The notes under the pieces are model-generated. The model was not told where the DNA came from. It saw only the letters and a list, made by a program, of their open reading frames with translations, and searched no databases. Position numbers and translations under genes: made by a program. Positions 4,332 to 63,721 of a stretch of 64,000 nucleotides of DNA are shown one piece after another; positions within the stretch are counted from its first letter, which is position 1; each line of letters opens with the position of its first letter. Origin of the DNA: Mytilus trossulus (taxonomy: Eukaryota); NCBI RefSeq assembly GCF_036588685.1, contig NC_086381.1, positions 22,134,001-22,198,000 of the forward strand, in the 5' to 3' direction.

Positions 4332-4540
4332 TTAATATATTATGATGGAACCTATATTCCGTGACAACCATAACCATGAATAAACTCTAGTCTTACTTTA
4401 AAGTATGGGGACCATTTAAGTAAAAGAAGGCCATTAAAAGGTTGTCATATCCTTAATTTGGAATTATAAGTTTGACTCCAAATTTCAAAATAATTTCAAA
4501 TTTCAAAATAAACATGTAATCCTTAGGTGCAAAACTCTTT

Positions 4541-29580: not shown

Positions 29581-30991
29581 ATTTCCTCTCCTTCATTTAA
29601 ACTTCCTGATAGGAAAATTGTACACGAAGAAAGGTCAATAACCTGAACTAAAAATAAACATTATTCGTTCTTATACTTGAAAATATTTATTTAGTTTTGA
29701 ATACTATGTCCTTAATATTATTTCACTTGATTTTAATTTTCCTTTTTTCGTCTTTTTTATTTAAAGAAATGTACGACCGTTAAACAACACGAGAAAAAAG
29801 AAGAAAAACCAAACAGTAATTTAAAAACAAACATGACAAATAAACTTAAACACACATTAAACAATTACCGTTTTACACAAATACAGTCACGAGTTGGCTA
29901 TGTTTTACGCCTAAAGATAATTTTAAGATATATTAAACTTTTGGGTCGAAAATTTAAAGTACCAGATTGAAAGGGGTTGGGCTATTTATTGATATCCTGA
30001 TATTGTCAAGTAGACATAGTTATTAGTCATATTCATATTCTACAAAACAGAAATACACTATCGAATCCCATAATAGAACTCATGAAGCAGAAAACAAGTT
30101 AATACTAGAACATGAAGTTTTTCTTTCCAAATGTCATGCACTAAAAGAAATTGAATAACAAAATTAACGAACTCTTTAAGAAATTTTTTACGGAAAGTCC
30201 CTACGCAAATGGCAAAATCAAAAAATCAAACGAATGGATAACGACTGACATACTCCTGACTTGTGACATACATTTTCTAATGTAGAAAATGGTGGATTAA
30301 ACCTGGTTTTATAGCTAGCATAATCTCTATATATTGACAGCGATGTGTTAACAAGAAAAACAGACATTATAGGTAAAAATGTCAAAAATAGGAGTATAGC
30401 AAGTAACATTGTTTTATAATCTTCATCACTATTATCAGAAACAAATATGTAAAAACTATCATCCAAATAGTTTTAAAATAGTGCTTTAATGCATAAAATA
30501 TTTTAAGATAATGTTTATCTCTATTTTGAAAGTGTTACAAATAAAATATAAGAAACAAAATATTCAGAAGTTGAACAAATAAAAAATGTTATTTTAAATC
30601 CAATTACTAGTATCACTAATTCACTAATGGAGAGGGAATATGTTTTGCAATATTTGTAAACGTAGATAACGCATAAACTGAAACCTTTTTTTCAGCTCAC
30701 AGTCAAGATCGAATTCAGTTTCAGACAAGTTAGAGAGCAAATATAGATTAATACCAAAATGTGTATAATAAACGCAGTGGTTGCTCTGAAGGTCCGACAG
30801 GCATTTTTATGTGCAATCCATGGTTTTTACCGAAGTATCCGTCTTTGAAGAAAATAATAAACATTATCCAGACGATGCCGTTGTTAAAAGGGTATATCAC
30901 ATCCCATAAGTCAGCACTCATTTTCTGAAAATAAAATATCAGACGTACGGTCCAGTATTATATTACATCATTGGCTCTACACATTTTATTA

Positions 30992-39700: not shown

Positions 39701-40856
39701 AGTTTGAAAGAAGTCTGAGTCCGATGTCAGAATAGGTGAAAGAAGAAACTAAGCAAAATGGCAATGATGCATACATTAACAAAGCATTTACTGACATGCC
39801 AGCTCCAGATCTCGATTAAACTAATTGAATAATTATGTCTTCATATAAGTACTTATTTTAAAAATATTTGTTTTGTTTCCTATTCTTTGTATACTGTAGT
39901 GAGTTACGATATCTGTTGGATATATAGATTTATGGTCCCTTTTTCTAACTTTTTCTGCCTATCGAATTAATCTTTAAAATTAAAAACATCAAATCGTCTT
40001 CTTTAAGGTCCTTTAACAAATTATATATGTTCAAAATTAGTCTTATAACAGAAAAAAATATGTGTTCGTATTTTATATCCGGTTACCTGATATATATTTA
40101 GTTCCACACGTTAAATGCGTAAATAAAATGGGAATTCTACACCGCAAAATGACAAGTGCTTTTTAATGAAATAAATTATTTATGATTGCAGTGCAACAGG
40201 GGTAACAATGAATGTCTAGATTTTCATACTACGGATTCTAGATTCAATTTCAGAAATGATGTAAGCTTATTGTGTCTAAGTTCACAGAAGCGCAGTCATT
40301 CAGGAATAATAAACAGTCGCAAATAAAATTAACACATATAAAATGTATTTCAGCCTCTATATCATAAAAATTATTTTTGCAATCAACATGATCAAAAGAT
40401 ACAGTGTTTTTAAATAATTTACCAAAATGTAGACAAAACGCGCGTCTGGCATATTAGATTAAAAATGTACACCACTGGGTCGGTGCCACTGCTTGTGGAC
40501 TTTTCGCCCTGGAGGGTATCACCAGCCCACTAGTCAGCACTTCGGTGTTGAAATGAATATCAATTATTTGGTCAATGTTATAAAGGAGAAGGTCCGGTAA
40601 GGGCCAATTTTGGCCTCTAATTTTAGGTTGATCTAACGAAATATTTTGAACACTCTTTAAAAACTTAAGTGTCTATTTCAATTGATTCAATTAGTTAATG
40701 TGAAAGATTTCAACTGATTTAGTCTTTAAAAACGTTCCCAATTGCGTTATAGTCAGAAGATATACTTATACAGACTGTAGAACATTTAAGATTCTAACCC
40801 TCATTTGCACAATTTCTTAAATTTCCCATTATATTTACAGACTTTGAGCGGGAACA

Positions 40857-43800
40857 ATGCCTTGCTGTACAAAAGTTCTCGGGAAAATCCAAGCGAAACA
40901 GATCGAACAAGATGATCTTGGAAAAGCAAAACAATTTAGATTATTCAGCATTGCTCGTCCATACATGCGAAGTTTCCACTCATCGTGGTTTTGTTTTTTC
41001 ATCGCTTTCACTTCATGGTTTGGGTTACAACCATTACTCCCCACTATAAGAAAGGAACTCAACTTATCAAAAACCGACCTTGCTAACTCAGGCATTGCTA
41101 GTGTAGCTGCTACTGTGGCTGTTAGGGTTATTATTGGACCTATGTGTGACAGATATGGACCTCGAAAAACAATGTCTTGTCTTCTAATTTCTGGTGCTGT
41201 ACCTATGGCACTAGCTGGGTTAATCAAAAGTGGCACAGGTCTGATTATATTGCGATTATTCGTTGGAATATTAGGTGGAACATTCGTTCCGTGTCAGTTC
41301 TGGACTACAGCAATGTTTAGTTCTAAGATTGTTGGAACTGCTAACGCCATAGCTGCAGGATGGGGAAATCTAGGTGGAGGCTTTACTTTTATATTAATGC
41401 CGGGATTATTCCGGTTAATGGAAGTATTTGGAGCACATGAATTTCTGGCATGGAAGATAGCAGTCGTTATACCTTCAGTTATATGTGTTCTCATAGGTAG
41501 GTTGTACAAATTTCAATATACAATGAACATGAATGCATGGGCAATTAAAATTTGAGCTGCTGAACTCACTATTCCGTAAAACAATAACAAAACATATGAT
41601 TAATTTGACTATTTTTTTAAATTATCATTGGGTATATTTCAATCAATCAGATTCGTATAGAAAAATTTGCATGTTTTTGGAATTTTGGGTCCTCAATGCT
41701 CTTCAACTTTGTACTTGTTTGGATTATAACTTTTTTGATCTGAGCGTCACTGGTGAGTCTTATGTAGAAGAAACGAGCGCCTGCCGTATCAAATTATAAG
41801 CCGGTACATTTAATAACTATATTCAATATACTTTCAAAGTAAACTGAAAATAACTGATCAAAAAATGATATTGCACGGTTATTTTCAAAATATCAGACAC
41901 AATCGGAACAGCCAATCAAATGAATTAGTGCTCTACATCTAGGTTATTGACAATAATAACATAACAATCATAGTCTTTGTACGAAGTTGATGCAAGCATA
42001 TGTTGACCAAGAGAAGTATATTGACACAGAAACTCGCCCCGAGCCAATTTACTTCTTTCATGTCAATATATTATCGTATCGACGGCATGTAAAGGTTACA
42101 AACTGATATCAGAGTATACCACAAAATGTTATTTTGTTTTCATTTAATTTAGAATAGGCTATTACCTCGGCGTAATAATATGAGCATTGCAACATTGGAA
42201 ATGTTCGAAAAACCCATGCGAATTTCCCTCTTCTTTAAGATACAAGCATACTTTTTAGACTGTCTTCCAAATATGTTTACTGTTCAGTCTTGAAAAAAAA
42301 CTAACTAAAAAAAGAGAGGCGGAAGATACTAAAAGAATATTGACAATCGTAAGTCGTAAACAAACACAAAACGCCATAGCACAAACCGAAGAACAACAAA
42401 GGCCACAAGAGTCTATAGAGCATTAAAACTAAAGACTATGCAACAGCATCAAAACAATGAAATAAAACATACAAAACCATAATCGGTTTTAACATGAGTA
42501 GCAAATGAAAAACTATCGATTTGATTAATGTACAAAACTATTATCAAATTGAAAGTAATTGCTTGCTATTAAAAAAATTTGTGTATTTTTTTCAGGGATT
42601 TTAATACTGTTCACTTCTGATGATTGTCCAAACGGCCATTGGGACAACAGAACATTACCACCATCAGCCAAATTACCAGAAAAGAAAACAGATGAAACAC
42701 AAGGTGTTGCGAATTTAGGATTTAAAAATGACTCACAGACAGAAGAGATGTCAAAGGAAGGTAAGATATAGAAAAAAACATCAAAATATTTTTTTACCGG
42801 AATTATCATATATAACAGGCTTTGAGAGGAAAAATGTTTTTTGAAAATCAAAGCCATACACATAGAAGAAGATAATCTTAGAAAAGCAAACAAAATTAGA
42901 TCATTCATCATTACTCGTCTAAACATGCATAGTCATAAATGCTCTCTAGTTACACATGTTACATGTACGATACTGTTGTTAAGTCATTAAGGATTGCATA
43001 TTTCGACATTGCTAAATATATAACTTCCCCCGACTAGCAATTACGAACACCTATGTTACTAATCTTTCTGATTTCAACTGAACCTGTTCTAAATTGTCGA
43101 AAAAATATACTGTCAGTAACAACAAATCTTTGGATTTACAGAAAATGTAACGTAGAATATCATATACTTTAAATTTTAAGGTTTGATGAAAAAAAAGAAT
43201 AACCGAAGTCATTCTTTGATGTTTTACGTTTCCACACTATAATATTTCTAATAGAGCATTTGCATTATTCACGTATCAGGATACGCACACGGATCGACGT
43301 ATACGTATCGAACAAATTTGTTTACAATAATGATTTCACCCCGATATCAATAAAAATTAAATGCATTATTAGATATTTTCATCGGGACCAACTTGACTTT
43401 ATTTATTCTTTCCTCATATACGTGATATACGATACGTCGATACGGATACGCCAGCAAATACTTGATTAATGGAAATGCTCTATTATTACTGATGACGTAT
43501 TTTCACCAAAAAAGTCCCGCGTGTTTAGAAGATAAGTTCAACGCACTGTGCAGAACATACACACAAGATCTATTGCGTACCTTCTTTTTGTCCTCATTAT
43601 GTATGCAGTTAGTGCTACCAGACTTTAAACAAATAAAAATCATTCAGGTCCAAGTTTAAACTAAACAAAATAAATGACAGAAGACCTGTCTTTAAATTTG
43701 AATGATGCCCTAGAAAAACCAAAGTTCGTAAACACAAATTATGTAATATGTACGATAATACTTTTTTTTGTAACAAAAGATTAAATGAAAGAAATGATGG

Positions 43801-45537
43801 ATTTCAAAACTACATGAATTATCTTTGACTTTGTCATAATTATACATTCACTGTTTACCTAATTTGAAAATAAGAAAATGCCTGTACCAAGTCAGGAATA
43901 TGAAAGTTGTTGTCCATTCGTTTGATGTGTTTGATGTGTTTGAGCTTTTAATTTTGCCATTTGATTAGGGACTTTTCGTTTTGAATTTTCCTCGGAGTTT
44001 AGTATTTATGAGATATTACTTTTAAAAAAACTTTGAATTTTTCAAAATACCAGGTATTTTTGTCCCCACGATACATATATGACATTAGCTGTATTTATTA
44101 GGTCCTCAATGATATTCAACTTCGTACGCAAAAACGAGACTATCAAACCTGTTTATAACAAATCGACATTACATCGATGCAAGCCCACACGAGAATCATA
44201 CCATTTAGGAGATAACTGTATTGTATTTTAAGCTCCGACGGCATCAATCGGGGATTTGATAGTCGCAAATTAAGTTTACTGGCGACGCGTTAGCCGTCGG
44301 AGCTTAAAATACAATATTGTTATCTCCATTCTAATGTATCTGACAGAAAACAACGTTAAAACATGTATTTAAAATCTGTCATATGCCGTCTGCGCTTGCG
44401 CGTACGTTCCATAGCAACAATTGTCAATTGATGCCATGTAAATAATTGACGTTATCCAATCAAAATGAACGTTACAAACGTTGTTGCATTAGAATTCACA
44501 ATATGTGTTCCAAACCAGATTTATAGTTATTTATTCGTTTTTAATTTATTATCAACTTGGATTTATACTTACGTTAATCAGTTTGATCCTCCTCTGAAAT
44601 TAGCGTATGTTATAAATTTTTATTTTTTATTTATAGTTTTAAAAATTATTCAAATTGTTATTAACTACATACCAAAACTTATTTAAACTAAAATACAAAC
44701 TGCCATTTACTTTCAGTCGAAAAGGAAACAAATGTTGACAAACTTGAAGAGCAGACGTCTCCAATAGAACAGAGAGAGGACAATAAAGAGCCAACCAGCC
44801 TAGTTGGCAAGTTTTGGGCAGCTGTTACGATGGTGGTTTTAGTGATGCAGTACGGAATGTGTTTTGGAGTAGAAATAGCTGTCAATACCGTTATGAACCT
44901 TTATTTTCTATATAGATTTAAAAAGGAGGACTGTTTGAAGGATATCAATAATCCATTTAATAAAACAAACATGACTACACCAAGTCTTGTCCGACTGGAC
45001 GACACTAACGAATGCAGCATTCTTGATCAGGATACAGCTAGTTTGATTGCATCCTTATTTGGTCTAATGAATCTGTTTGCTAGGGCAATGGGTGGGATTT
45101 ATTCTGATGTTTTGCGTCAACATTTAGGAATTGCGGGTCGTCTTACAGCCCATTTCACTTGTCTTGTAGGAGAGGGCGTAATGCTAATAATCTTTAGTAC
45201 TATGACTACTATACCCAACGCTATTGCTGTCATGATATTTTTCAGCGTGTTCGTACAAATGTCCGAAGGGACAACCTATGCTATCGTCCCTTATGTACTT
45301 CCATTACACATTGGTATTGTAGCGGGATTAGTGGGAGCAGGTGGGAACGCTGGCGCTCTGATATGGAATACAATATGGCGACAGTTAGTGGAGGACGATC
45401 CAAGTAGGTGGTTTTGGCTTATAGGATTAACCGTTTTATCCGGAAGCGTACTGACGCTTTTAGTTGAGGTACAAGATCAGCGGATCTGGGATGTATTTGT
45501 TTGTGGTAAACGTCGTAAAAAGAAGTACAACTTATAG
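40857..45537 (+). CDS. NRT2: NRT2/NarK-family (NNP, MFS) nitrate/nitrite transporter, paralogue 1; 3 coding exons, 541 aa
   Basis: Exons 40857-41496, 42596-42760 and 44717-45537 are GT-AG and phase-consistent. Motifs: ARPYMRSFHSSWFCFF, conserved Arg in VRVIIGP..DRYGPR, FVPCQFW, signature AAGWGNLGGG, DDCP.G, QYGMCFGVE, second Arg in NLFARAMGG, and GLVGAGGNAG. Confidence 0.92.
41640..41820 (+). mobile_element. Retrozyme-like dispersed repeat with a degenerate type I hammerhead, in NRT2-1 intron 1
   Basis: GAGCGTCA-CTGGTGA-GTCTTATGTAGAA-GAAAC-GAGC-GCC-TGCCGT. Homologous relics at ~37430-37476 (-), ~40428-40580, ~54762-54825, ~59620-59790 (-), ~33880-34205 (core deleted) and at the start of each 585-bp unit. 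Confidence 0.65.
43271..43450. mobile_element. Small CGTATC-rich inverted-repeat element
   Basis: CGTATC...ATCGACGTAT..CGTATC versus GATATACGATACGTCGATACGGATACG. CpG-rich against an AT-rich intron. Confidence 0.5.
44205..44496. mobile_element. Hairpin-type non-autonomous element in NRT2-1 intron 2
   Basis: ~35-bp inverted repeat GGAGATAAC..TATTGTATTTTAAGCTCCGACGGC / GCCGTCGGAGCTTAAAATACAATA..GTTATCTCC, followed by a second short pair ATTCTAATG / CATTAGAAT. Same architecture as 63722-64000. Confidence 0.65.
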
Positions 45538-46848
45538 AAATTTAAACAATATTTGATGGATTGTTTTTTTCAATTCATTATTATTTCAATAAATATGCAT
45601 CTATATATTGTGTCAATTATATAAATATATAATATGTATATAAATTGGTTTTAAGAATAAACAACGATGTAGTTGTATCAATGTAAAGTACAAATGTACA
45701 TTTTCTTAAATTGATGACATACAAACTTATGATTACATGAAGAATAACTGTCAATTGGATATCATATGAATAATAAATACACATTGTGTTCGATTATATT
45801 ATAGGTTTGATAAAATACAAAGCGAATAATACAAACTACATGAAATACAAGAAAAGCATATGATTGAACTTTCAAATTATGATAGGAACCTTTTTCTCTT
45901 CAACATGTATTTCTGTAGCAATACAAAAATAATATTTTTTTTCATTCTTCAGTTAAAACAGCTGACCCAATAGTCATTAAATGACACCCATACGATGCGG
46001 AAATGCGGCACGACAACGTATTAGCGTATGCAACTCCAATTAGAACAGATTAATAATAAATGAAACTTTTTTTCTTTGGCACTACAACAAAGGTAGTGTT
46101 CAACGTTACATTTTATCATTAAATTGCAAGTATGTTGTCCCGAAAAGGGAGACATTGTTCTCGCTATACCTTCATTACTGCATTTTGAATCTAAATATCA
46201 TAGCTTATGGTAGATTCAAAAATTCAAAGGTGGACATACTATAGTTCTATCTATGTTCAATATTTATTCCAAAACAAGTAATTAAAATTCAAACCAATGT
46301 TCCTTTGATATATTGAATATAACATAATGCAAATATTCAAACAGTCATGCAGTTAATCGACAAAATAAGATAAAACAAAATTTCACACTCTATGTGAATC
46401 TAATCATTATTGTAACGACACTCTGATTTCCAAATAACACTAATCACTCATACTTGCTGAATATTCCTGCAGTCATTTAAATCAGAGTTTCCTAAAATAA
46501 ACCCAATACTCATGTCCTTAGTATGTCGTCAATAACATATTTTAAGTTGTCTCTGAAGATTAATTGCAGAATATATTATGGTCATACATAATTTATGTTT
46601 GTTATGCATATTCTTCAGCATCTGTACATCGGAAATGGATCAGTCATGTGCATGTACATCAATGCATTTCAGGTGCAAGAGGATTATGTGCCCTTTGCCA
46701 TGAATCATGAACTCTGTTGGATGTAAGGATTTGCAAATCTGTGGATAGAGGTTTTATATAAAGAAGTATTATATTAAACGATTTATATTGGAATACGCTG
46801 TAGCATCAACATCTTTGTTTTCATATTTAAGCAAACTATGATAGATGT

Positions 46849-47745
46849 AAAATTGAGAATGGAAATGGGGAATGTGTCAAAGAGACAACAACCCGACCAA
46901 ATAAAAAACAAAACAGCAGAAGGTCACCAACAGGTCTTCAATGTAGCGAGAAATTCCCGCACCCGGAGGCGTCCTTCAGCTGGCCCCTAAACAAATATAT
47001 ACTAGTTCAGTGATAATGAACGCCATACTAATTTCCAAATTGTACACGAGAAACTAAAATTAAAATAATACAAGACTAACAAAGGCCAGAGGCTCCTGAC
47101 TTGGGACAGGCGCAAAAATGCGGCGGGCTTAAACATGTTTGTGATATCTCAACCCTCCCCCTATACCTCTAACCAATGCAGAAAAGTAAACGCATAACAA
47201 TACGCACATTAAAATTCAGTTCAAGAGAAGTCCGAGTCTGATGTCAGAAGATGTAACCAAAGAAAATAAACAAAATGACAATAATACATAAATAACAACA
47301 GACTACTAGCAGTTAGCTGACATGCCAGCTCCAGACTTCAATTAAACTGACTGAAATATTATGATTTCATCATATGAACATCAGGCACAATCCTTCCAGT
47401 TATGGGTTTAGTATCATACCACTATAACATATATGAGAAGAACATAACCCGTGTCATGCCAACAACTGTTTTTAGAATAAATGTGTTTAGTTCCGATGCA
47501 AAGACCTTATCAGTGACTCAATATTAACGCCAAAATATGCAATCTTTAATGACTTGACAACAGTATCGGAATGATGTCCCTTTTAATAAGTCTATTCAAA
47601 GGTTTTGTAAGTTTCTGAGGTGAATACTGACACCTTTGTGCTTTATAAAGAATATTTCCATAAAAAATTGGATGTGAAATACCTGAAAGTATTAAAAGTC
47701 TGCATGTTGAGCTATATTTACGAGTGATGTCTTTATACCGATGAT
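46849..47745 (+). repeat. Long copy of high-copy dispersed repeat (family B)
   Basis: AAAATTGAGAATGGAAATGGGGAATGTGTCAAAGAGACAACAACCCGACC... Near-identical reverse fragment at ~54086-54214; others at ~1203-1271, ~38397-38477 and a diverged copy at ~39390-39845. Confidence 0.8.
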
Positions 47746-48838
47746 AAATTCTTGTATAGGGAACAAATTAGATAAGTATTTTCATGAGTGTAATGATACT
47801 AATAAGAAAGAAAAAACTATATCATACAGAGATAGAAAACATAGGTAGAAAAAAAGAAGTTTAACTATAAATGTCCTCCGTCTGCATCGGACTACTAGTA
47901 TTTCACATTGGAATACAATACATTTTGGAATTGAATTTTTATTTCCTTTGTAAAAATATGACAGTCATCATAATTTATTTTCAGTCGAGACTTTTGAAAT
48001 TTATAGTACTAATAAAACTGAAATAAATTTGCAATAATGTTAAGGGTATCATTTCATTCATCAATACTGGCTAATGAATGTATCTTATAAATAACAACAT
48101 TATTGAGCCCAATTGAATTGCCCAATTTGATGCGACTGTCATATAAGTTGTCTGTTTGTCTTTTTCATTTTTAACCATGTTTTTGTCAGTTTATTTTCGA
48201 TTTATGAGTTTGAATGTCCCTCTGGTATCTTTCGTCCCCTTTTAGAGGTTTAGCTAGCTATAAAACCAGGTTTAATCTACCATTTTCTACACAAGAAATG
48301 CCTGTTCCAAGTCAGAAATATGACAGATTATATTTAAATATGAAAGGTATAAGCACTTTTCGTTAGACATATGCTGCATTTCAATAAACATCTCAATTGA
48401 CACAATACCGATATCCCCTTTTTGCCGCTGAACACGAGCAGATTGCATTTTCATTAATTATGATATTACAAATATTCATATTTACTTGATTCCTAGTAAA
48501 CAAATGAAAAAGCTGTTATAAAATTCGTTTTATCAAGCTTATTTGCTACCGTACCATTTAATGTGACCTACCGAATAAGACTGCTCACCAAATTTTTGAT
48601 ATAACATAAGCAACACGACGAATGTCACATGTGGGGCATAATCTCCTTACCCCTTCCGGAGCACCTGAGATCACCCCTAGTTTTTGGTGGTTTTTTTTTA
48701 ATCCTTTAGTTTTCTATGTTGTGTCATGTGTACTATTGTTGTCTGTTTGTCTTTTTCATTTGTAGCCATGGTGTTGTTAGTTTATTTTAAATTTATGAGT
48801 TTGACTGTCCATTTGGTATCTTTCGTCCCTGTTTTAAG

Positions 48839-49619
48839 CACAGGCACTTGTCTCAAATTTTTTTTCCCCTATATACCTTAATATAACACAAGGTACTTAA
48901 CTAAATTTTTTGAAAAATGACACCCAGTCCCGAATTCACGTTATTTTGTTTATTTCTCGGTTGTCAAACCTACTTAAAGTTAATATGCCGTAAATCTAAA
49001 TTGATTTATCTACACAATGGTATATGACACGACTATCATTGTTGTCGGGATCATTGGTAGCAGGCCTCAGAAGTCGGTCAACGGGATGTTTTTTGCATTC
49101 GTCTCAATTTTTGGCAACACCCAGCCCGCAGTGATTGAATTATTATAAAAAAATATTAAAATAAAAACTGTTACGTTATGTTAATTATGTGAAACAAACC
49201 CAAATAACTTTGTTATGAAACACACGTGTACACAACGACACTAATGTAGAGTTATAAATTGACCAAAATTTCCCACATTTATTTTTAGCCAGACGATTGA
49301 CCAATGAGAAACCAGTATAAAATTACATGCGGACCGGGTGTTGCCAAAAATTGAGACGAATGCAAAAAAACATCCCGTTGACCGACTTCTGAGGCCTGCT
49401 ACTAATGATCCCGACAACAGTGATAGTCGTGTCATATACCATTGTGTAGATAAATCAATTTAGATTTACGGCATATTAAGTTTAAGTAGGTTTGGAAACC
49501 GAGAAATAAAAAAAATTACGTGAATTCGGGACTGGGTGTCATTTTCTAAAAATTTAGTTAAGTACCTTGTGTTATATTAAGGTATATAGGAAAATTTTTT
49601 TTTGAGACAAGTGCCTGTG
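48839..49619. mobile_element. Foldback DNA transposon with ~295-bp TIRs and an 8-bp TSD (P-element-like termini)
   Basis: CACAGGCACTTGTCTCAAA... / ...TTTGAGACAAGTGCCTGTG with an exact TSD GTTTTAAG (48831-48838, 49620-49627). About 190 bp of AT-rich non-coding spacer. Confidence 0.9.
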
Positions 49620-52600
49620 GTTTTAAGAGCGTTATCCATTCTGTATGTAAGTTGAAATCACTTGTTTTATCAATTCAAATCTGTAATTATTTATATTGGA
49701 ATACCGTTGTTATTTAAAACACAACTTAGATTATAAGGATTATATCGTTTTGATCACTCGAAATTCCCTCGAGATCAATGCGACTTTAATGTTATTTTAG
49801 AAGCAACACAAGTTAAAATAGTGTGCATCCCTCCAGAATAAAGAAAAAAGACGATAAACAAAAGGTAAGAAATCACGCGAACTCCAAACGGTAAAACACC
49901 GGGAATGTATAAAAAAAAGAGTGTTGCTAAAAATAAAATAAAATAATACCGAACCCCAAGGAAAAGTACAAACGGAAAGTCCCTACGAAAAGGGCAACAT
50001 CAAACACATCAAACGAATTGATAATAAATGTCATATTCCTGAATTGGTACAGGTATTTTCGTAAGTAGAAAATTGTGCATTAAACCTGATTTTATAGCTT
50101 ATTATCATTGTTTCTAGAAAAAAAAGTTTCTCCTGACAAAACTCTTTATTCGAGGGGAGATGCCTGGTATCAAGGATTTTGCTGAAACAGCGTTTTTCAA
50201 ATCCCATATCTCCAGGTGTGATATAAGTGTCGACGCAAATAATATGTAGCTAACTTGGTATCTTAAGACTTTCACGAGAGTTGTTTTATATGGAAATGCA
50301 CGTACACACCTTACATTTTACCTTACATTTCATGTTTTATGACATAACCAAATCAATATTTATTTACCTTTCGAATAGTCCGATAACTTCCTTGTTAATT
50401 TCGACATTAAAGGAATGTTAAACAATATAGGTATATATATATACTTTATTCCCTACTTTCGTATAACCTTTTCCTTCATACAAATACATGTGTTTGTTTG
50501 AATGTTAGTAAGTGTGTTTTGTTTTATATGTTTTTGCATTCTCAATTTAGATATTTGATGGTGTTTATTCGTGCATTAAGACAAGTCGAATGACATTTAA
50601 CTTATGCAATCTGGATGATTCAGTAATTATTGTCATTAAATTTTCGTTATCTATCATACTTATGAATTGAAAAGTGTTTCCTATATTTCTTCCTATTAAC
50701 AGTAGAGGAAAGGAGTAACGAATGCAATAAGCAGCAGTAAAAACAAACCAAAACTAACAATGTAAAGCCGATAAAAAAAGAGAAGTGAAACGCTGGGAAT
50801 CAGAGACATACAAAACAGTTAGACCAAATAATATGATACATGAGGCGAAACGGTCAGGAACCATCCGAACTTAGCAATTTCAACAGACTGAGAGTTACGC
50901 TTCAACAAAAAAAAAGGTTTATCTCATGTATAGATCTACCTTTAAACAACATTCTTAATCATAAACAAGGATTTATACATTGTTTCAAGTGCGGTATATA
51001 TATCCATTTATATATATTGATCTTTGGATTATTCAATGGTTGTCTTTAGGCGTTCCAGAAAAAGAAAAGACAAGAAGTAAAATTTTTTTTTTTTTTAATT
51101 TGGTAAGTAGCAAACTAAAATTTTCGAGAGCAACACTTCTTGTGGTCTTATAGCACATCTCTTTTTAAAAGATTTTCAGTTTTAAAGATACGTATTCCTA
51201 TTTTATTCGAATGTTTTGTATTGATATTGCATATCTCTAGTTTGTCTACCATAATCTCCTAGGGCGTTGCAAACTTCTAAACTAAATCCTCCCGTGAAAG
51301 TATGGATATCCAACTTTATACTCCTCATACAAGTTTTTTTTCTGATTAAGGATGATTGGGAATTAAATTGTTAGAGTAAATTGAAGATGATTGTAAAAGA
51401 CTGGAAAGAAAAACAATGATGTGAAGGTTTTCTCCAATTTAAAACATACATCTTAAATAGATTTATGTAAGACTATTCTCTAAGTCATATCATTTCTATA
51501 ATGCTTCTCGCACTGTATAACTATTCTTTCTTTAATTTTCAAATTTTGACTAGAAAAATATAATGGTATCGACCACTTTGCATTCTTAATGAATCGGGAT
51601 TTGCAAATTCTCAAAAAATTAATAAAAAAACCAAGCATGCGAATGTTGAAATCTTATATCATGCAATGTACAGTACTTTTCAAATAAAATAATTGAGAAA
51701 AAATGTAATATAGCATTTCAAAGCAAACACTATTAAACCACATATAAATTGAGCTGTGAAATTCTTCACTTTAGCAGGATGTTGGACTCCTTAGATAAAC
51801 TGACAAATCATTGCACATTTTGATTTTTTGTATCCACATTACAACTATACTGTTCTGTTTAAATATAAAAAGACAACTTTAATTGGTGTGTATAAAAGCA
51901 TAATTTGTTTTAAATCCGTATTTTCAAACACAATCCCTATTAAAACCAATTTGTGGTCATGCTTTTGGTTTGGGTATTTTGAGGTGTAAATCCTGTTGCT
52001 TTACATGCTATTTCCCTTTCCCTTTTTGTCAAGATAAGTCATGAATATTTCATGTAAGAGAAAATTCAAAAAAAAATTGATATAATAGCAATAATTATAA
52101 TGATAATACTATTGGTAATAATAACATCAATAATAAAATAATAATAATAATAAAAATACGTAGACTGACAATAATGATAATACTATAACTAAATAGATTA
52201 GTATCTGTTATGAGTCATTTTTGGCATTTAAGACGCAACTTGTAAAACAAAAATTGGTTTTCACTTTTATTGTGTATATACGTATAAAAGTAGGAATAGA
52301 AAAAAAATATAAAAGAGAGCCGAAAGATAACAGAGGTACTGTCAAACTTATAGATCGAACATAAACTGTCAACGCCATAGCTAAAAAAGAAAAATACAAA
52401 CAGACAAATAATAATGCACAAGAAACAATAGAGAAAACTAAAGACTACGCAATACGAATCACATCGAAGGTGCTCCGGAAGGGTGAAAAGATCCTAGTAA
52501 ATAGTTTTTTTTATATACCAAAACCATCAAACAGTGTTCTATTTACATTCAAAAGAAATTGAATACAGTAGAAAGACGATATTTACAAGAACGACCAAAG

Positions 52601-53094
52601 CGAGTAAAGCCCAGCACAAAAAAAGCTGGAACCTATAACATTCAACTGGGTTTCCAGATTACGATAAATTTGATAAATGTTAAGGCCGGTAGAAATTCAT
52701 TTCGAAATATCTTTTATAAGCAAGCTATAACAATTTTCCATTCATTTTTATTGTTGCGATTATCAAAAACGTTGCGTCCTGATTTTGTTGCAATCAACAT
52801 ATTTCATTGCATGTTTTAAAAAGAAAATTACATGACACAACCTTCCTAACCTAGGATTAATGCGTAGGGCACTGCCACTAATTCTTGTGCCAAGATGAAG
52901 TCTTACAAGACCATCGACAGACCATTACACAACATGGTGTATGCTAAGATTAAAAAAACACTTATGAACTTATATATAAAGCTAAAGTAGTATTGTAAAA
53001 GAGTGATCTTCCGCGTATTAAATAACTATTGCTTACCAATTATACTCGGTGTCTGTTACCAAGAATCTAAATCAATTAGGTCTCATACTACTGA

Positions 53095-53330
53095 TAGGTT
53101 TAGTTAGCTATTAAAGCAGGTTTAGTTAGCTATAAAAGCAGGTTTAGTTAGCTATAGAAGCAGGTTTAATCCACTATTTTCTGCTCAAGAAAAGCCTGTA
53201 CAAAGTCAGGAATATGAAATTTGCTATTTATTCGTTTGATGTGTTTGAGCTTTTGATTTTGGCATTTGATGATGGACTTTCCTATTTGAATTTTCCTTGA
53301 AGTTCAGTAGTTTTTGTGATTTCACTTATT
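53095..53330 (+). repeat. Dispersed repeat (family C) with a local 3 x 22-bp tandem expansion
   Basis: AGGTTTAGTTAGCTAT..AAGC x3, then GCCTGTACAAAGTCAGGAATATGA...TTCGTTTGATGTGTTTGAGC. Other copies at ~19305-19610 (-), ~30160-30450 (-), ~35770-35940, ~43870-44022, ~49945-50098 (-) and ~59040-59182. Confidence 0.7.
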
Positions 53331-54870
53331 ACCAATATTGAAAAATCGTTCAAAAATACATAATCCTAAATAATTTTCAAAGTTATATCGCTCGTCGATC
53401 GGTAAATTTTTGTGAGTGTACTATCTCTTTGAGATATTTTCTAATGTCACACTGAAGAAGTGTCAAAAATCTGCCTAGAGTATTCATAAAAAAGGACCGA
53501 AAGGAGTTGATACACATGATAAATATGACTTGTTTTATTTCACAAAATCTACAGTAAGTACAGGCAACTGATGCATAATAGAACGTTGTGAGGCATGGCA
53601 GGATCCCGACAAATAAACGTGATATGTAGTCCATGTTTCAGAAACAAAATAATATTTTTGAATTTAGATGAGAAAGTTTTTCCTAGTCTGCCGAAGATAG
53701 CAACAGAAACCAAATACTTGAGTTTCATTTGTGCACAGGTGTGTCTGTATGTTAAGAATAAATTGTAATGAACATACGGCCATATTAACCCAAAGGTTAT
53801 GATCAATCCCAAGTATTTTCATATTTAAAATCTTCTTTAGAAATTACAAAGGATATTACATTTGTTTTTAACGGCATATTTAAACAATACTTTACAGTTT
53901 CCTATAAAGTATTTTTTTTTATGAAAATATACTGTTTAACTTCAAAGTAACCAATTCGACCGTATTATTTATGAATTGTTAACTTACACACAAAAGATTT
54001 CCATAGTTATTAACAAAAAGTATTACGTATACTTATACAAGAGCATAATAAGACTCGGTTTAAGATTTTAAACTCCTAAAATTGATGAAGGACGCCTCCA
54101 GGTGCGGGAATTTCTCGCTACATTGAAGACCTGTTGGTGACCTTCTGCTGTTGTTTTTTTATTTGGTCGGGTTGTTGTCTCTTTGACACATTCCCCATTT
54201 CCATTCTCAATTTTAACTATACACCGTTCGGTGTTCAATACTAATAAAACATGCCATGCAGTTATTTATAAATGATCACTTGAGAACGAAATGTAGAACA
54301 AAGCACCATGGGTACATATCATCCGCATTTAAGTTACATACACCCAAACAAATATGACAAACGACAATTGAAAAAAAACAGTCTGCAAGAACTTAATTAC
54401 AAGCCCTTCTTCCAAATAGAAAGTGTGCTTCATTTCGATCACCGTTATGAAAAAATTAATCAAAACAAAACATTGGCTCAAATAAAAATCTAAACTTTCA
54501 TATAGATCTTCACATAATTTGAAGTTATTCTGTTACATCTTTGGTTTTTTTGGTAAAAGTTTTTGCGACGTATATACGGAAATGATAGGTTGAATAGAAA
54601 AACTACAGACTGTACTGTCTTCATCAACATAAAATGTATCCGAAAAATCAAACATAGAATACTCATATGCCATAAGGAATAAAGCTATCCTTTCTATACC
54701 ATCTAAAGTATGTTTTCTTTATAATAGTTGTCACAAATTCTCTAGCACTACTGACAAATGTCATGTAGACGACGATCGAGTCTGACAAAAAATAAATTAT
54801 AAGCCTGGTATCTTTGAATAACTTCTATAATAATACCAATGCTTCTAATTTTAGATAACACTCAAAAACC

Positions 54871-57800
54871 ATGTCGTGTTGTACAAAAATTATGAGAAAA
54901 ATTCAAGCCAAAGAGATAGAAGTAGATGATCTTGGTAAAGCAAAACAATTTAGATTATTCAGTATTGCTCGTCCACATATGCGAAGCTTCCATGCCTCAT
55001 GGTTTTGTTTCTTTGTCGCTTTCACGTCATGGTTTGGTATTCAACCACTACTCCCTACAATAAGGAAAGAGCTTGAATTATCTAAAACAGATCTTGCTAA
55101 CTCTGGAATTGCCAGTGTTGCCGCTACAATCGCAGTTCGAGTGATAATTGGACCGATGTGTGACAAGTTTGGACCTCGAAAGATAATGTGTAGCCTTTTG
55201 ATAACAGGTGCTATACCAATGGCACTAGCTGGCTTAATAAAAACTGGAACGGGTCTTATTGTATTACGATTATTCGTTGGAATATTAGGTGGAACATTTG
55301 TTCCGTGTCAATTCTGGACTTCAGCTATGTATAATTCTAAGATTGTTGGAACAGCTAATGCCATAGCTCGTGGATGGGGTAATCTAGGGGGAGGATTCAC
55401 ATTTATTTTGATGCCAGGATTATTCCAGTTAATAAAAGTAATAGGAGCAGACGAATTTATGGCATGGAAATTAGCAGTCGTGGTTCCTTCATTAATTTGT
55501 GTATTAACAGGTACGTAAAATATGTCTTACATCAACAAGATATTTGGAAACAAAGATTAAAACTGTGATATATATACTAAACAAAATCTTAATCACTTTA
55601 ATCTCTTTTTATTCAAGAAGATTGCAAAACTATGCTTGTGTTAATCTCAACAGAAATCTAACAACATTTCAAATAATCGTCATTGAAAAATTTCAGAGTT
55701 CTGTTATGATCGAAATGATATTTTGTTTTGTTTCAAAAAGCGAAAATTATGTTTTGTATTATACACGCATTTGTGTCTACTCAGATGTGTAAGCATTTTG
55801 CAATTGAGCGGAAATCAAACCGTTGTCTTTCTCGTTTGATTAGATTTGATTTTTATATGTTTGCATGTCAAGGTCATTGGTAGTTTGCTATGTAGTTATG
55901 GTAATGTTCACTGTTGGAGGAAGTGCGATGAGCTATTGTTGCTAAACTCAACGTCATGTTGTCTCTAATAGATTGTTGTCACTTTATGAATCATACACAG
56001 GTTCTTAATTTTATAATGGTAACATTCAAATATTGGCCTATTTTATTTATATCTCTGATAAATTTAGACTTAGGACTTTCTTGCTGTCATTGCTATACAA
56101 AAGTGTCTATGATAACTTTGTAAATGACCAGACGTAGTAACACAGAAACACGCATGTATCCTTTGGCTGTAATTTTCCTTCTATTTTGGAACACAATGCC
56201 ATTTTTAAACTTTGTATTTGAATCGTGGGACTCATAGTACCTTTACCGATACACATTATTATATAAAGTTTGATTCTTAAAATAAATATCTGTAAATTCT
56301 TTAATCATAAACTGAGTGATGATTACCGAAGTTCGTTGCAACCGTATACCATTTGTTAAGTGCTATCAACATTAAACAACTAAATTATTTTTTTCAGGCA
56401 TTTCTATAATTTTCACATCTGATGATTGTCCTCAAGGACATTGGGACAATCGGCTTATGCCAACCACACTAACATGTTCTACAGACAAAACGAAACAAAC
56501 GCAAGGAGTCACCAACCAAGGATTCGAACACACTTCAGATGAAGACGGTAATGCAAGTAAAGGTAAAAACCTTCATTCACAATAGAAAAAGACTAGAAAG
56601 CAATAAAAGGACGTAAAAAATGTACAAGAATAAAAAAAAACATATATCAAGCTTTAATTCTAAGATTCATAAGAAGTGAAGGTTCCAACTTCTTCTGGTC
56701 AAGTTAATTTCTGTGTCATTTTGGTCTGTTATGGAGAGTTGTCGCATTGGCAATCATACCACATCTTCCTTTTTATACTTAGGTGTATTTTGCTATTCAT
56801 TACTCGTCCCGTTTGGTCATATAGATAATCAGGATTTCGAGGATTAAATTTTGGCTTTCATTTTGAAGACTTAAACGCTACTTGTGAAGGTTCTTCGAGG
56901 AAAGTGCTTTGAAATTATCACAATTATAGATTATCATTCTTATGTGTGTGTGTTTTTTAAAATCGGTTTGATATGTTTTGAAGTTATTAGTTGGAGAGTA
57001 ACGTTTTACAATGTATTTTTTTTAAAGATTTTGTGTTCGACAGGAACCTCCATCGGATCGTCACCATAGTTATAATTTTTTCATCGATTAATAATTATCT
57101 AAAATACAATACGTATACCTGTAAAAATATGTTTTCTCTTTTTTACAGCTGTAAGTGAAACACATATTGACGGAAAGAAATTTGAGCCTTCATCATCAGA
57201 AATTCGAAACAACAATGAAAAACACATATCTAATCAAAGCAACAGGTTTTGGTCAATAATAACTATATTGGTTTTGGTGATACAGTATGGGATGTGTTTT
57301 GGTGTTGAAATTGCTGTCAATACCGTTATGAACCTTTATTTCTTGTACAACTTTAAAAAGGAGGGTTGTGTAGAATGGAGTAATTCATTCTCTAACATTA
57401 CAATCACAACAATGAAAAGTGAAGTTAAAGAGGCGGACACAAATGAATGTAGTATCCTAGGTCAAGATACTGCAAGTTTAATTGCATCATTGTTTGGTTT
57501 GATGAATCTATTTGCTAGGGCAATGGGAGGAATATACTCAGACATAATGCGAAAATATTTAGGTATAGCTGGTCGTCTTGTTGCTCAATTTACATGCTTA
57601 GTATGTGAAGGTATAATGTTGATAATATTTAGTCAAATGTCTACTATATCAACGTCCATAGCTGTAATGATATTTTTCAGCATGTTTGTCCAGATGTCAG
57701 AAGGAACAACATTTGCTATTGTACCGTATGTCTTACCTTCTCACGTAGGAATTGTTGCGGGGTTAGTTGGAGCAGGAGGAAATGCAGGGGCTCTTGTATG

Positions 57801-57972
57801 GAATACATTATGGCGTCAGTTTGTTGAACAAAATCCAAGTCAGTGGTTTTGGCTTTTGGGCATTATAGTTTTATCCGGAAGTCTGTTGACTTTTTTAATC
57901 GAAGTTCAGGAAAAAAGAATTTGGAATGTATTTTTGTGTTGTAAACATAAGGAAAGAAAATACACCATATAA
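54871..57972 (+). CDS. NRT2: NRT2/NarK-family nitrate/nitrite transporter, paralogue 2; 3 coding exons, 542 aa
   Basis: Exons 54871-55510, 56398-56562 and 57149-57972. Intron positions and phases, and the lengths of exons 1 and 2 (640 and 165 nt), are identical to paralogue 1. Same motifs, except signature 1 reads ARGWGNLGGG. Confidence 0.92.
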
Positions 57973-62235: not shown

Positions 62236-63468
62236 TTAATTTAATTTCCATCCTGCAAATGTTGTCTTTGATCCGTAAGAATCGTTACTTAGAATTTGTG
62301 TAGTGGCTTGACGAAACGAACGAATGAATACGGTGTCACCTTGGTTCAGCGATACGACTAAAGTCCCTGAATCTGAGTCTGTATCGCAGCAGACATTATC
62401 AGTCTCGCCATATGTTCCCCCGTATACTGAATTATTGACTAGAACATTAAAAAATGTCTTTCCATTGTCTCCTGAATAAATTGTCCATGCAAAGACATAC
62501 ACACCTGCTACTGGTGCCGAAAACGCGCCGGTGAATTTGTTGTAAGCATTTCCAATATTAGTTTGGGCGGTATCAAAGACTAGTGTGTGGTGACTGCTCG
62601 GATTGTCCTCATTTTTTGACATGTAAGCAGAGAATGCCACAACTCCAAGATCACTGGCCGGCACTGTGCTTATATCCTGGAGTGTTGTATCTGAAACAAA
62701 GATGATACAAATAAGATTATAAAATTTCTTCAATATGAAGATTCAATCGAGTAGAAAAATCTCCGGTTATTCAAATCTTACAGAAACTAGTAAGTTAAGA
62801 TGACAAAAAAGTGCCGTTAATTAAAAGGGGGTATTGGCAATACATTTTACTACATGATTTAACATAAAAATAACATAAAGATAATATAGTTAATTGATAC
62901 ACTTGCGTCTTTTGTTTGTGTGTATGTGTTTGTGTTGTTTTAGAAACAACTGTATATGTAACCTTTATTATGCCTGCCAAAATTATATACAAAAGAGAGA
63001 AAAAAAATTCCGAAAAAAGTATAAACACAACAAAGAAAAATTAGAAAGATTTGCTAGGATTTGTATCATAGTTAAAAATACTTCTATTAAGAAAACAATA
63101 CTTTTTTGTCTTCTAAAATAAAATTAGTATAACACAAAAATAAATGATCATGTGTGCTAACCTTTAACATTTGTGGTTTGTTTTGGATTTCCAGCTCTCT
63201 TCGGTAAAATGCCCTTATCTGCGGAGCCTTCAGCTGTAAAATGGGTATGGTCTATTCTGGAATCAATTTCCTTTAATTTATCTACATCCTTTCTTAGCAG
63301 TATGTTTTCCGCTCTAAGTGATTTATTGTCGTTTTGTAGTTTCAGGATTTGGGATTGCTGCTGTTTCAGTATCTCGTGTATTTTGCGTATTTCTTCTACA
63401 GTATCACTTGCTAACACCGAATACGAAAGCAATACGAACATAAATATCATAAACATTCTCGATTCCAT
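62236..63468 (-). CDS. Secreted C1q-domain-containing protein (signal peptide, coiled coil, gC1q); 2 coding exons, 253 aa
   Basis: Exons 63468-63162 and 62690-62236 joined by a phase-1 GT-AG intron. Signal MESRMFMIFMFVLLSYSVLA; heptad region IHEILKQQQSQILKLQNDNKSLRAEN; gC1q motifs VAFSA, LVFD...NIGNAY...TGAFSAPVAGVYVF, LNQGDTV and TFAGWKL. Confidence 0.92.
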
Positions 63469-63721
63469 TTTACTTCTAAACATGCAGAAGTGTTGAGATA
63501 AGATAAACGTACACAATTATTATCTTACATGACCCTGAACAGAAACAGAACACCACCATGGTCAACCACATTGGAAGTATTTGATTACAAATTTATACAG
63601 ATCTTTACATTATATATTAGTTTACAATGACACATTTATTGATATTGTATATATAACTTACTTGTCCATGTTACTAAATTTTGTCGGAAGCTGAAACTGA
63701 AAAAGTGTGTTTATATATTTA

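What the first reader, a model, noticed from the sequence alone, without database searches (positions are those of the whole stretch)
40857..57972. Two intact tandem NRT2 nitrate/nitrite transporters in an animal genome
Seen: two complete 3-exon genes with both nitrate-signature motifs, both conserved substrate arginines (TM2 VRVIIG, TM8 FARAMGG) and shared intron positions, so they are host genes and not algal or bacterial contamination. Established: NRT2/NarK (nitrate-nitrite porter family) serves nitrate assimilation or respiration in plants, algae, fungi and bacteria. Animals lack the assimilatory reductases, and NRT2 homologs are only patchily reported in marine invertebrates, with no function known to me. 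No reductase is in this window. Inference: duplication with retention implies an uncharacterised animal nitrate/nitrite-handling role, such as a nitrite-NO store in hypoxia or emersion, nitrite export after immune NO bursts, or supply to gill/gut microbes.
Basis: partly seen in the sequence, partly recalled or inferred. Interest (0 to 1): 0.72.

Follow-up and report, generated by a model that had tools for sequence, protein, structure and literature searches.

The report
Mussel nitrate transporter gene pair
These are two real, spliced genes of a blue mussel for plant- and fungus-like nitrate transporters, two of six copies in its genome; such genes were first described in bivalves in a 2025 preprint, and in mussels they likely import nitrate and nitrite, possibly as a reserve for making nitric oxide when oxygen runs low.

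Summary
Confirmed with one correction. Two open-frame genes (541 and 542 aa, 72% identical, three coding exons, phase-1 GT-AG introns) encode NRT2/NNP-type transporters of a Mytilus mussel; each is identical to an NCBI M. trossulus protein. Substrate residues are conserved. dN/dS between them is 0.09 in the core, and both introns of gene B are spliced in relatives' contigs. Correction: gene B's first nitrate signature carries Arg167 where all 154 other motif-bearing homologues have Gly or Ala, so B is not fully intact in this assembly. The genome holds six open-frame copies in two clusters. No assimilatory nitrate or nitrite reductase was found. Animal NRT2 is already reported (giant clam preprint, Nov 2025), where symbiont feeding was proposed. 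Separate expansions in Mytilus, Mercenaria and freshwater unionids, none photosymbiotic, point to a host role instead. New lead: four tandem aldehyde-oxidase/XDH-like molybdoenzyme genes, a family whose mammalian members reduce nitrite to NO, begin about 87 kb upstream; the linkage is seen only within Mytilus. Best guess: epithelial nitrate/nitrite import feeding hypoxic NO production. The substrate is likely; the physiological role is untested.

The parts
40857..41496 (+). Gene A (NRT2-A) coding exon 1: TM1-TM6, R90 (codon 41124), nitrate signature 1 AAGWGNLG
   Evidence: whole protein identical to P0123 = XP_063401048.1
42596..42760 (+). Gene A coding exon 2: end of TM6 and start of the central loop
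   Evidence: GT-AG, phase 1
44717..45537 (+). Gene A coding exon 3: TM7 (Y314, F318, G319), Cys341-Cys369 loop with N-glycosylation sequons N350/N353, TM8 R391 (codon 45082), NS2 GAGGNAG, stop
54871..55510 (+). Gene B (NRT2-B) coding exon 1: TM1-TM6, R90 (codon 55138)
   Evidence: whole protein identical to P0002 = XP_063399740.1; spliced in relatives' contigs
55369..55371 (+). Private Gly167Arg codon (CGT; relatives GGT) inside nitrate signature 1 of gene B: a damaging allele or an assembly error
56398..56562 (+). Gene B coding exon 2
57149..57972 (+). Gene B coding exon 3: TM7-TM12, R392 (codon 57517), NS2, stop
54853..54854 (+). Likely splice acceptor of a 5'-UTR intron of gene B (an AG also lies at 40839-40840, before gene A's ATG)
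   Evidence: run X5 record 21 has 25 unaligned 5' bases at this place; inferred

Best explanation
The two genes are spliced, purifying-selected mussel members of the NRT2 nitrate/nitrite porter lineage and likely import nitrate and nitrite across the surface membranes of epithelia such as gill and mantle, where the nitrite would serve as a reserve that host molybdoenzymes and resident bacteria turn into nitric oxide when the shell is closed and oxygen falls. Shown: gene structure, splicing of B's orthologue, selection, family placement, six copies, no assimilatory reductase detected. Inferred from family knowledge: a 12-helix MFS rocker switch in which R90, R391, Y314, N171, F143, F318 and F51 (inferred equivalents of NarK R89, R305, Y263, N175, F147, F267, F49) bind a flat anion; plasma-membrane location (sequon-bearing, Cys-flanked TM7-TM8 loop); coupling to Na+ or H+; no NAR2 partner needed, as in fungi. 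Speculative: the NO sink. The nitrogen cannot be assimilated, so the likely host use is the nitrate-nitrite-NO route. Gene B's allele in this assembly would be impaired if Arg167 is real.
For: Substrate site: R90, Y314, F318, G319 and R391 are invariant in 66 of 66 aligned rows (N171 in 65), including all six genome copies. These are the residues Fukuda et al. name as the NarK nitrate site (PMC4432589, passages). Of 72 columns conserved at 85% or more in 32 non-bivalve rows, A keeps 69 and B 68. Fungal NrtA/B are specific for nitrate, nitrite and chlorate (PMC4635503, passages). Selection: core dN/dS is 0.087 for A vs B (dS 1.17) and 0.082 for the youngest pair D vs E. Retention without symbionts: separate clades in Mytilus (6 copies), Mercenaria (5) and unionids (Sinanodonta 4, Potamilus 2). 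Tridacna copies are gill- and outer-mantle-specific. Physiology: NO accumulates in hypoxic M. edulis gills (PMC6411825, passages). Arctica hemolymph nitrate (33 uM) turns into nitrite (37 uM vs 3.6 uM in the water) under anoxia (PMC7205294 Table 2). XOR and AO reduce nitrite to NO under acidosis and low O2 (PMC6129670, passages). Four tandem AOX/XDH-like genes begin about 87 kb upstream of gene A.
Against: No transport assay or tissue expression data for any mussel copy; contigs show presence only. Hypoxia-tolerant bivalves (tolerance recalled) whose proteomes are in the collection (Mya, oysters, Tegillarca, Dreissena) gave no NRT2 hit in the listed rows, so NRT2 is apparently not needed for hypoxia tolerance. 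Added nitrite did not change gill respiration in Arctica (abstract), and it is unknown whether Arctica has NRT2. The AOX-like array belongs to a pan-animal family with several copies also in gastropods where no NRT2 hit appeared. It is separated from gene A by at least four unrelated genes, is absent from the stretches read around the second NRT2 cluster, and the one AOX-like protein listed for Owenia and for Potamilus lies on a different contig from their NRT2. Both proteins fall just below TIGR00886's curated cut-off (304.7 and 300.8 vs 311.7 bits).
Confidence: 0.42

Rival explanations
1. Disposal route: the transporters export nitrite and nitrate (from NO breakdown after immune bursts, or from nitrifying biofilms and sediment water) out of cells and into seawater or urine.
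For: NrtA can export nitrate and nitrite under some conditions (PMC4635503), and NarK is a nitrate/nitrite antiporter with the same site. The animal has no assimilatory sink and no FNT nitrite channel was found. The carriers are filter feeders in sediment or beds, including freshwater unionids.
Against: Eukaryotic NRT2s are mainly high-affinity importers. Most animals dispose of nitrate without NRT2 (recalled). Giant clams take up nitrate and their copies fall on bleaching.
Confidence: 0.22
2. Microbe provisioning: the host moves nitrate to gill, gut or hemolymph bacteria as an electron acceptor or nitrogen source, the non-photosymbiotic counterpart of the giant clam model.
For: Tridacna copies are down-regulated on bleaching and Bathymodiolus has a homologue. 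Bacterial nitrate reduction is the authors' preferred source of hemolymph nitrite in Arctica. Denitrifying biofilms on molluscs are noted in PMC6411825.
Against: The highest copy numbers found here are in Mytilus and Mercenaria, which have no known nutritional symbionts (recalled). Chemosymbiotic Solemya is in the collection but gave no listed NRT2 hit. Surface microbes reach seawater nitrate directly.
Confidence: 0.17
3. Changed substrate or sensor: the animal clade carries another small anion (for example a halide or halogen oxyanion), or senses nitrate as a cue rather than moving it in bulk.
For: Four family-conserved positions differ in nearly all bivalves (R200K, L322I, N326T, F489W). The score is just under the family cut-off. 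The central loop is long, and the TM7-TM8 loop is extended. NarK accepts chloride weakly.
Against: Every inferred substrate-contact residue is kept in all six copies, and the four changes are mostly conservative.
Confidence: 0.12
4. About gene B alone: it is a decaying duplicate in this lineage, and only gene A of the pair works.
For: B has three private changes at conserved sites (F154Y, G167R, H415Q) against one in A (Q226N). No M. californianus B appeared. One M. galloprovincialis model of B is truncated (P0166).
Against: The frame is open and splice sites are intact. Orthologues are full-length with Gly167 and spliced. B's terminal branch is hardly longer than A's (0.043 vs 0.034). A single base could be an assembly error or a rare allele.
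Confidence: 0.2
5. Contamination or a recent transfer from algae or bacteria.
For: The family is typical of algae, fungi and bacteria.
Against: Shared introns in six copies on two 82 and 104 Mb contigs; orthologues in five Mytilus species; a bivalve + Owenia clade at SH-aLRT 99; host-like GC and animal neighbour genes.
Confidence: 0.01

Closest known systems
Animal NRT2 clade of bivalves and Owenia (TriNRT2.1/2.2; Uchida et al., bioRxiv 10.1101/2025.11.20.689417; abstract, sections 11 and 12 and search passages read; figures and supplements not seen)
   Same: Same clade (bivalves sister to Owenia), 12 TM, both arginines, variable copy number, no assimilation in the host.
   Different: The host is non-photosymbiotic, so the proposed symbiont-feeding role cannot apply as stated. 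Six copies here against 0-5 reported. The main text does not use the word Mytilus, although its figures may include it. No Tridacna sequence was available for direct alignment.
Fungal NrtA/CrnA and Corallochytrium NRT2 (NNP family, TC 2.A.1.8)
   Same: Nitrate signatures, R87/R368 equivalents, short C-tail; Corallochytrium shares the Cys-flanked TM7-TM8 loop.
   Different: Fungal copies serve assimilation and cluster with nitrate and nitrite reductases; none was found here. Overall identity is 34-41%.
E. coli NarK nitrate/nitrite antiporter (PMC4432589, passages)
   Same: The inferred substrate-site residues and glycine spacing match.
   Different: Bacterial respiratory antiporter. No NarK chain came back from the PDB searches, so the residue mapping rests on spacing given in the paper and partly on recall.
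Plant and seagrass NRT2 with NAR2 (PMC6695921, passages)
   Same: NS1 A-G-W/L-G-N-M-G on TM5, second signature on TM11, long TM6-TM7 loop; a marine Na+-coupled precedent.
   Different: No NAR2 match in this genome, though the control rang nowhere so the search is uninformative; no 70-residue plant C-tail.
Sialin (SLC17A5), the nitrate carrier known in mammals (recalled)
   Same: An MFS fold; sialin chains are among the Foldseek hits.
   Different: A different family, 13-15% identity, no nitrate signatures; not an orthologue.

Membership tests
Nitrate/nitrite porter (NNP, NRT2/NarK; TC 2.A.1.8) | MFS fold with 12 transmembrane helices | tested here: met
   PF07690 over cut-off in both. AlphaFold2 model of the gene A orthologue P0001 (91.5% identical): pLDDT 78.6, 12 long helices in two bundles. 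The listed Foldseek hits are MFS-type transporters.
Nitrate/nitrite porter (NNP, NRT2/NarK; TC 2.A.1.8) | Two intramembrane arginines (TM2, TM8) plus TM7 Tyr/Phe/Gly | tested here: met
   R90, R391/392, Y314, F318, G319 present in both genes and in 66 of 66 rows.
Nitrate/nitrite porter (NNP, NRT2/NarK; TC 2.A.1.8) | Nitrate signature 1 (A-G-W/L-G-N-x-G, TM5) in gene A | tested here: met
   AAGWGNLG at 166-173.
Nitrate/nitrite porter (NNP, NRT2/NarK; TC 2.A.1.8) | Nitrate signature 1 in gene B | tested here: inconclusive
   GWGNLG is kept but the first position is Arg in this assembly; Gly in 3 of 3 orthologues covering it and 3 of 3 covering runs. Allele or error not resolved.
Nitrate/nitrite porter (NNP, NRT2/NarK; TC 2.A.1.8) | Nitrate signature 2 (TM11, GAGGNxG) | tested here: met
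   GAGGNAG in both.
Nitrate/nitrite porter (NNP, NRT2/NarK; TC 2.A.1.8) | Score above the curated cut-off of TIGR00886 | tested here: inconclusive
   Best model by about 250 bits, but 304.7 and 300.8 against a cut-off of 311.7. All five mussel proteins scanned score 295-309 in two stretches; three non-animal controls pass at 329-401. The model is built for prokaryotes, and long loops split the match.
Nitrate/nitrite porter (NNP, NRT2/NarK; TC 2.A.1.8) | Branches inside the NRT2 tree | tested here: met
   Bivalve + Owenia clade at SH-aLRT 99, near fungi and Corallochytrium (quick tree, no bootstrap).
Nitrate/nitrite porter (NNP, NRT2/NarK; TC 2.A.1.8) | Transports nitrate or nitrite | not testable with these tools
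   Needs a heterologous assay; none was found in print for an animal NRT2 (searches).
Eukaryotic nitrate assimilation pathway (NRT2 + EUKNR + NIR) | Nitrate reductase and nitrite reductase in the genome | tested here: not met
   PF01077: 0 matches (control rang in 11 of 14 genomes). PF00174: 1 match, a sulfite oxidase (Cyt-b5 + Moco + dimer domains; E 4e-54 to sulfite oxidase vs 3e-25 to nitrate reductase). The search is exon by exon and can miss intron-rich genes.
Two-component NRT2-NAR2 system of plants and green algae | NAR2 partner | tested here: inconclusive
   PF16974: no match, but the control rang in 0 of 14 genomes.

The most novel reading that the evidence does not exclude
Mussels run a host-encoded nitrate-nitrite-NO pathway with dedicated importers: six NRT2 copies concentrate nitrate or nitrite from seawater, and the neighbouring tandem aldehyde-oxidase/XDH-like molybdoenzymes reduce it to NO during shell closure. 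The C9 region would then be a loose animal counterpart of the fungal nitrate cluster, serving signalling and metabolic depression instead of assimilation.
Probability: 0.07. Interest if true: 0.85.

Novelty: new member of a known kind. Interest (0 to 1): 0.45.

Why it matters
Animals cannot assimilate nitrate, so six conserved nitrate transporters in a non-symbiotic mussel need an explanation. The one paper found on animal NRT2 explains it by algal symbionts, which cannot hold for Mytilus, Mercenaria or freshwater unionids, each of which expanded the gene separately. Mussels are easy to work with, and the six copies plus a natural Gly/Arg variant in the signature motif make the question directly testable. 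If the NO-reserve model is right, it would give a molecular route for hypoxia tolerance in intertidal bivalves and a host role in coastal nitrogen cycling. The existence of the genes is no longer a surprise; their function is the open part.

Tried and rejected
PDB sequence searches with single exons returned nothing. The profile search returned only SLC37A4, and the listed Foldseek rows held no NarK/NarU chain, so no direct structural comparison with a nitrate porter was possible. The first exon 3 boundary for gene B was one base off and gave a broken frame; corrected. The run search listed no holder on record as RNA. The laid contigs show presence and splicing only, not tissue or level. No read-level check of gene A exists; its expression rests on full-length orthologous proteins from 1947 and 1956 bp Logan contigs, shorter than the 4.7 kb gene. 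The careful tree did not finish in two runs; supports are SH-aLRT from the quick tree of 66 rows chosen by hand from about 266 proteins held, and no topology test was run. dS is saturated for 13 of 15 copy pairs (pS above 0.67), so only A/B and D/E ratios are used. The NAR2 search is uninformative. No FNT nitrite channel was found. No shared neighbours were found between the two NRT2 clusters beyond repeats. Conserved NRT2-AOX linkage outside Mytilus was not supported in Owenia or Potamilus, and could not be tested in Mercenaria, Sinanodonta or Pinctada (no AOX-like hit among the best 120 of 2107). Unkles et al. 2012 on signature mutagenesis is not held (only its title was seen). The Fragum transcriptome paper has no mention of nitrate or NRT. 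The preprint's supplement, which details the animal search and may list Mytilus copies, was not seen. Three look-ups of earlier scan findings returned nothing.
Full report
OBSERVATION. The window holds two same-strand genes 9.3 kb apart. Gene A has coding exons 40857-41496, 42596-42760 and 44717-45537 (541 aa); gene B has 54871-55510, 56398-56562 and 57149-57972 (542 aa). All four introns are GT-AG, phase 1 and at matching positions; the proteins share 389 of 541 residues. Gene A is identical to P0123 (XP_063401048.1) and gene B to P0002 (XP_063399740.1), both named by NCBI as uncharacterized Mytilus trossulus proteins; orthologues in other Mytilus species are labelled 'NRT' or 'NNP family nitrate/nitrite transporter'. 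Contigs from four public runs of relatives (guessed to be RNA; two organisms, three studies) join intron 1 of B in 4 of 4 runs and intron 2 in 3 of 4, at the predicted sites; one 2384-nt contig spans all three exons. Gene A was not checked by reads; full-length orthologous proteins come from 1947 and 1956 bp contigs, which must be spliced.

CORRECTION. Nitrate signature 1 of gene B reads ARGWGNLG. Among 165 proteins held, 155 carry GWGN, preceded by G in 110, A in 44 and R only in gene B. Its three covering orthologues have Gly, and 3 of 3 runs covering base 55369 read G instead of C. By spacing, the site equals NarK G171, one helical turn from the substrate-binding N175. Fukuda et al. list G171 in the signature but not among the glycines their mutant analysis found important (PMC4432589, passages), which fits tolerance of Ala; Arg would be bulky and charged near the pore (inference). 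B has two more private changes at invariant sites (F154Y, H415Q) against one in A (Q226N). It is an impaired allele or an assembly error; these tools cannot tell which.

FAMILY. The best NCBIfam model is TIGR00886 (NarK family), E 9e-91 and 1e-89, but the scores (304.7, 300.8) are just under the 311.7 cut-off, as are all five mussel proteins scanned; three non-animal controls pass. An AlphaFold2 model of the gene A orthologue P0001 has 12 long helices, pLDDT 78.6, with disordered loops at 237-292 and 344-365. The Foldseek rows listed are MFS-type transporters with no nitrate porter among them. In a 66-row alignment R90, Y314, F318, G319 and R391 are invariant and N171 is present in 65; of 72 columns conserved at 85% or more in 32 non-bivalve rows, A keeps 69 and B 68. 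The paper names F49, R89, F147, N175, Y263, F267 and R305 as the NarK nitrate site. My mapping to F51, R90, F143, N171, Y314, F318 and R391 uses the spacing given there and, for the two N-half phenylalanines, recall; no NarK sequence was in hand. Bivalves, Owenia and Corallochytrium share a Cys-flanked loop between TM7 and TM8, with N-glycosylation sequons in the mussel proteins, which suggests a glycosylated outer loop at the plasma membrane (inference).

COPIES AND SELECTION. The genome has six matches to each half: three on C9 (A, B and one 80 kb further on) and three on C2. All six can be modelled as open-frame genes with three coding exons and the same phase-1 first intron; two of the four outside models equal NCBI proteins exactly. 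NG86 dN/dS for A vs B is 0.16 over the whole CDS and 0.76 in the central loop, and 0.087 over 405 core codons; for the youngest pair D vs E it is 0.082; the other 13 of 15 pairs are near saturation. In a quick ML tree (SH-aLRT, no bootstrap; the careful search did not finish) A and B are sisters (98) and the M. californianus orthologue lies inside the A clade, so the duplication predates these species. Bivalves and Owenia form a clade (99). Mercenaria (5 copies, 99) and unionids (6 rows, 100) form their own expansions, and the rotifer protein groups with ascomycetes (100). Contamination is excluded.

DISTRIBUTION. Named animal hits (best 120 of 964 and of 218) are Mytilus, Mercenaria, Sinanodonta, Potamilus, Pinctada (one 424-aa partial), Owenia and Rotaria. 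One search shows that proteins of Mya, Dreissena, oysters, scallops, Tegillarca, Mactra, Solemya, gastropods, a chiton, Lingula and Capitella are in the same collection, yet none gave a listed NRT2 hit. This suggests patchy retention; the search is word-based and one search missed Owenia, so absences are soft.

PRIOR ART. Ocana-Pallares et al. 2019 traced NRT2 with the assimilatory reductases in algae, plants and osmotrophs (PMC6400420, passages). Uchida et al. (bioRxiv 10.1101/2025.11.20.689417; abstract, sections 11 and 12 and passages read; figures and supplement not seen) report NRT2 in bivalves, annelids and rotifers, 0-5 copies, gill- and outer-mantle-specific copies in Tridacna that fall on bleaching, and propose nitrate supply to photosymbionts. 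The sections read show no transport assay and offer no role for non-symbiotic species. Searches found no other paper on host NRT2 in bivalves; the library lacks most subscription journals.

WHAT USES THE NITRATE. No NIR_SIR domain was found (0 matches; control 11 of 14). The only sulfite oxidase/nitrate reductase Moco domain is a sulfite oxidase. No FNT channel was found, and the NAR2 search is uninformative. These searches run exon by exon and can miss genes. So assimilation is unlikely. The known animal sink is reduction to NO by XOR, aldehyde oxidase, sulfite oxidase and mARC, favoured by acidosis and low oxygen (PMC6129670, passages). NO accumulates in hypoxic M. edulis gills (PMC6411825, passages). 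In anoxic Arctica, hemolymph nitrate falls from 33 to 2 uM while nitrite rises to 37 uM against 3.6 uM outside; the authors favour bacteria, allow for host XOR, and found no effect of added nitrite on gill respiration (PMC7205294, abstract and sections 15, 24, 25).

A NEIGHBOURHOOD LEAD. A search for XOR-family domains placed four tandem genes at C9 21.905-22.088 Mb on the minus strand, the nearest 5' end about 87 kb upstream of gene A. They carry GGAYGSK / TxCRAPG / GEPP motifs, unlike the canonical XDH on C3 (GGGFGGKETRS, TAFRGFG; motif names recalled). The four M. trossulus proteins on a contig of this length have the 2Fe-2S/FAD/Moco domain set. The linkage holds in M. edulis (accessions CAG2231198 and CAG2231205 on one scaffold) and at chromosome level in M. 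galloprovincialis and M. californianus. A rough chance of such proximity is 0.0007-0.007 for 1-10 candidate loci, but the test is after the fact. Against a functional cluster: at least four unrelated genes lie between (DUF2045, ankyrin, alpha/beta hydrolase, a kinase) plus a LINE; the C2 cluster has no such neighbour in the stretches read; the family is pan-animal and multi-copy in gastropods where no NRT2 hit appeared; and the listed Owenia and Potamilus members lie on other contigs than their NRT2. I treat it as a lead, most likely chance.

MECHANISM. Most likely each protein is a plasma-membrane MFS carrier binding nitrate or nitrite between two arginines and cycling with Na+ or H+ (a marine Na+-coupled NRT2 precedent: PMC6695921, passages). 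I put about 0.85 on nitrate/nitrite being the substrate of the family in mussels. For the role, I put 0.42 on import feeding a nitrite-NO reserve for hypoxia, 0.22 on disposal, 0.17 on provisioning microbes and 0.12 on another substrate or sensing. Shown: structure, splicing of B's orthologue, selection, copy number, placement. Inferred: substrate, location, coupling. Speculative: the NO sink and any tie to the AOX-like array.

VERDICT. A real feature and a new member of a kind described in 2025. Not a first report, but the function in non-symbiotic bivalves is open and testable. Interest 0.45.

Noticed in passing
G000:C9:21905000-22088000 (L038-L057), outside the window: Four tandem full-length aldehyde-oxidase/XDH-like molybdo-flavoenzyme genes, nearest 5' end about 87 kb upstream of gene A; linkage seen in other Mytilus, not in Owenia or Potamilus.
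   Followed up: partly
window 27463-29592 (-): Single 709-aa open frame: a Ser/Thr protein kinase domain (PF00069, residues 64-346) followed by about 360 residues with no Pfam match, which to my eye resemble a Nudix-like fold (recalled, untested).
   Followed up: no
window 3711-8003 (+): LINE-like retroelement: PHD finger, endonuclease and reverse transcriptase in two overlapping frames.
   Followed up: partly
window 62236-63516 (-), L063:5559-6023, L066:7270-7845: Three tandem C1q-domain genes, each with a coiled-coil-like first exon, lie between NRT2-B and the third C9 copy.
   Followed up: partly
G000:C2:58982000-59056000 (L014-L016): Second NRT2 cluster of three open-frame copies; D and E are a younger duplication (dS 0.37). 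Copy E has Val where most homologues have Phe at position 148. Glycine-rich secreted-protein genes lie about 70-80 kb upstream.
   Followed up: partly
P0009, P0013, P0167 (unionid mussels): One unionid subclade has Asp at 325 and Cys at 452 where other bivalves have Asn and Glu, the same pair of states as Halteromyces and P0018; possibly a shift in ion coupling.
   Followed up: no
window 48878-49545: A long inverted repeat of roughly 280 bp with a spacer of about 110 bp, read by eye between the two genes; likely a MITE-type element. Not run through the repeat finder.
   Followed up: no
window 56703-56781: Very high-copy short repeat inside intron 2 of gene B (summed contig depth about 10,000).
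   Followed up: no
G000:C3:4888700-4893750 (L073-L074): The canonical XDH gene holds three versions of the exon with the TAFRGF motif: possibly mutually exclusive exons or a local duplication at an active-site segment.
   Followed up: no
G000:C9:22051300-22052400 (L054): A short tandem repeat in the fourth AOX-like gene repeats the end of an exon (HLITRVDILYDCGER) several times.
   Followed up: no
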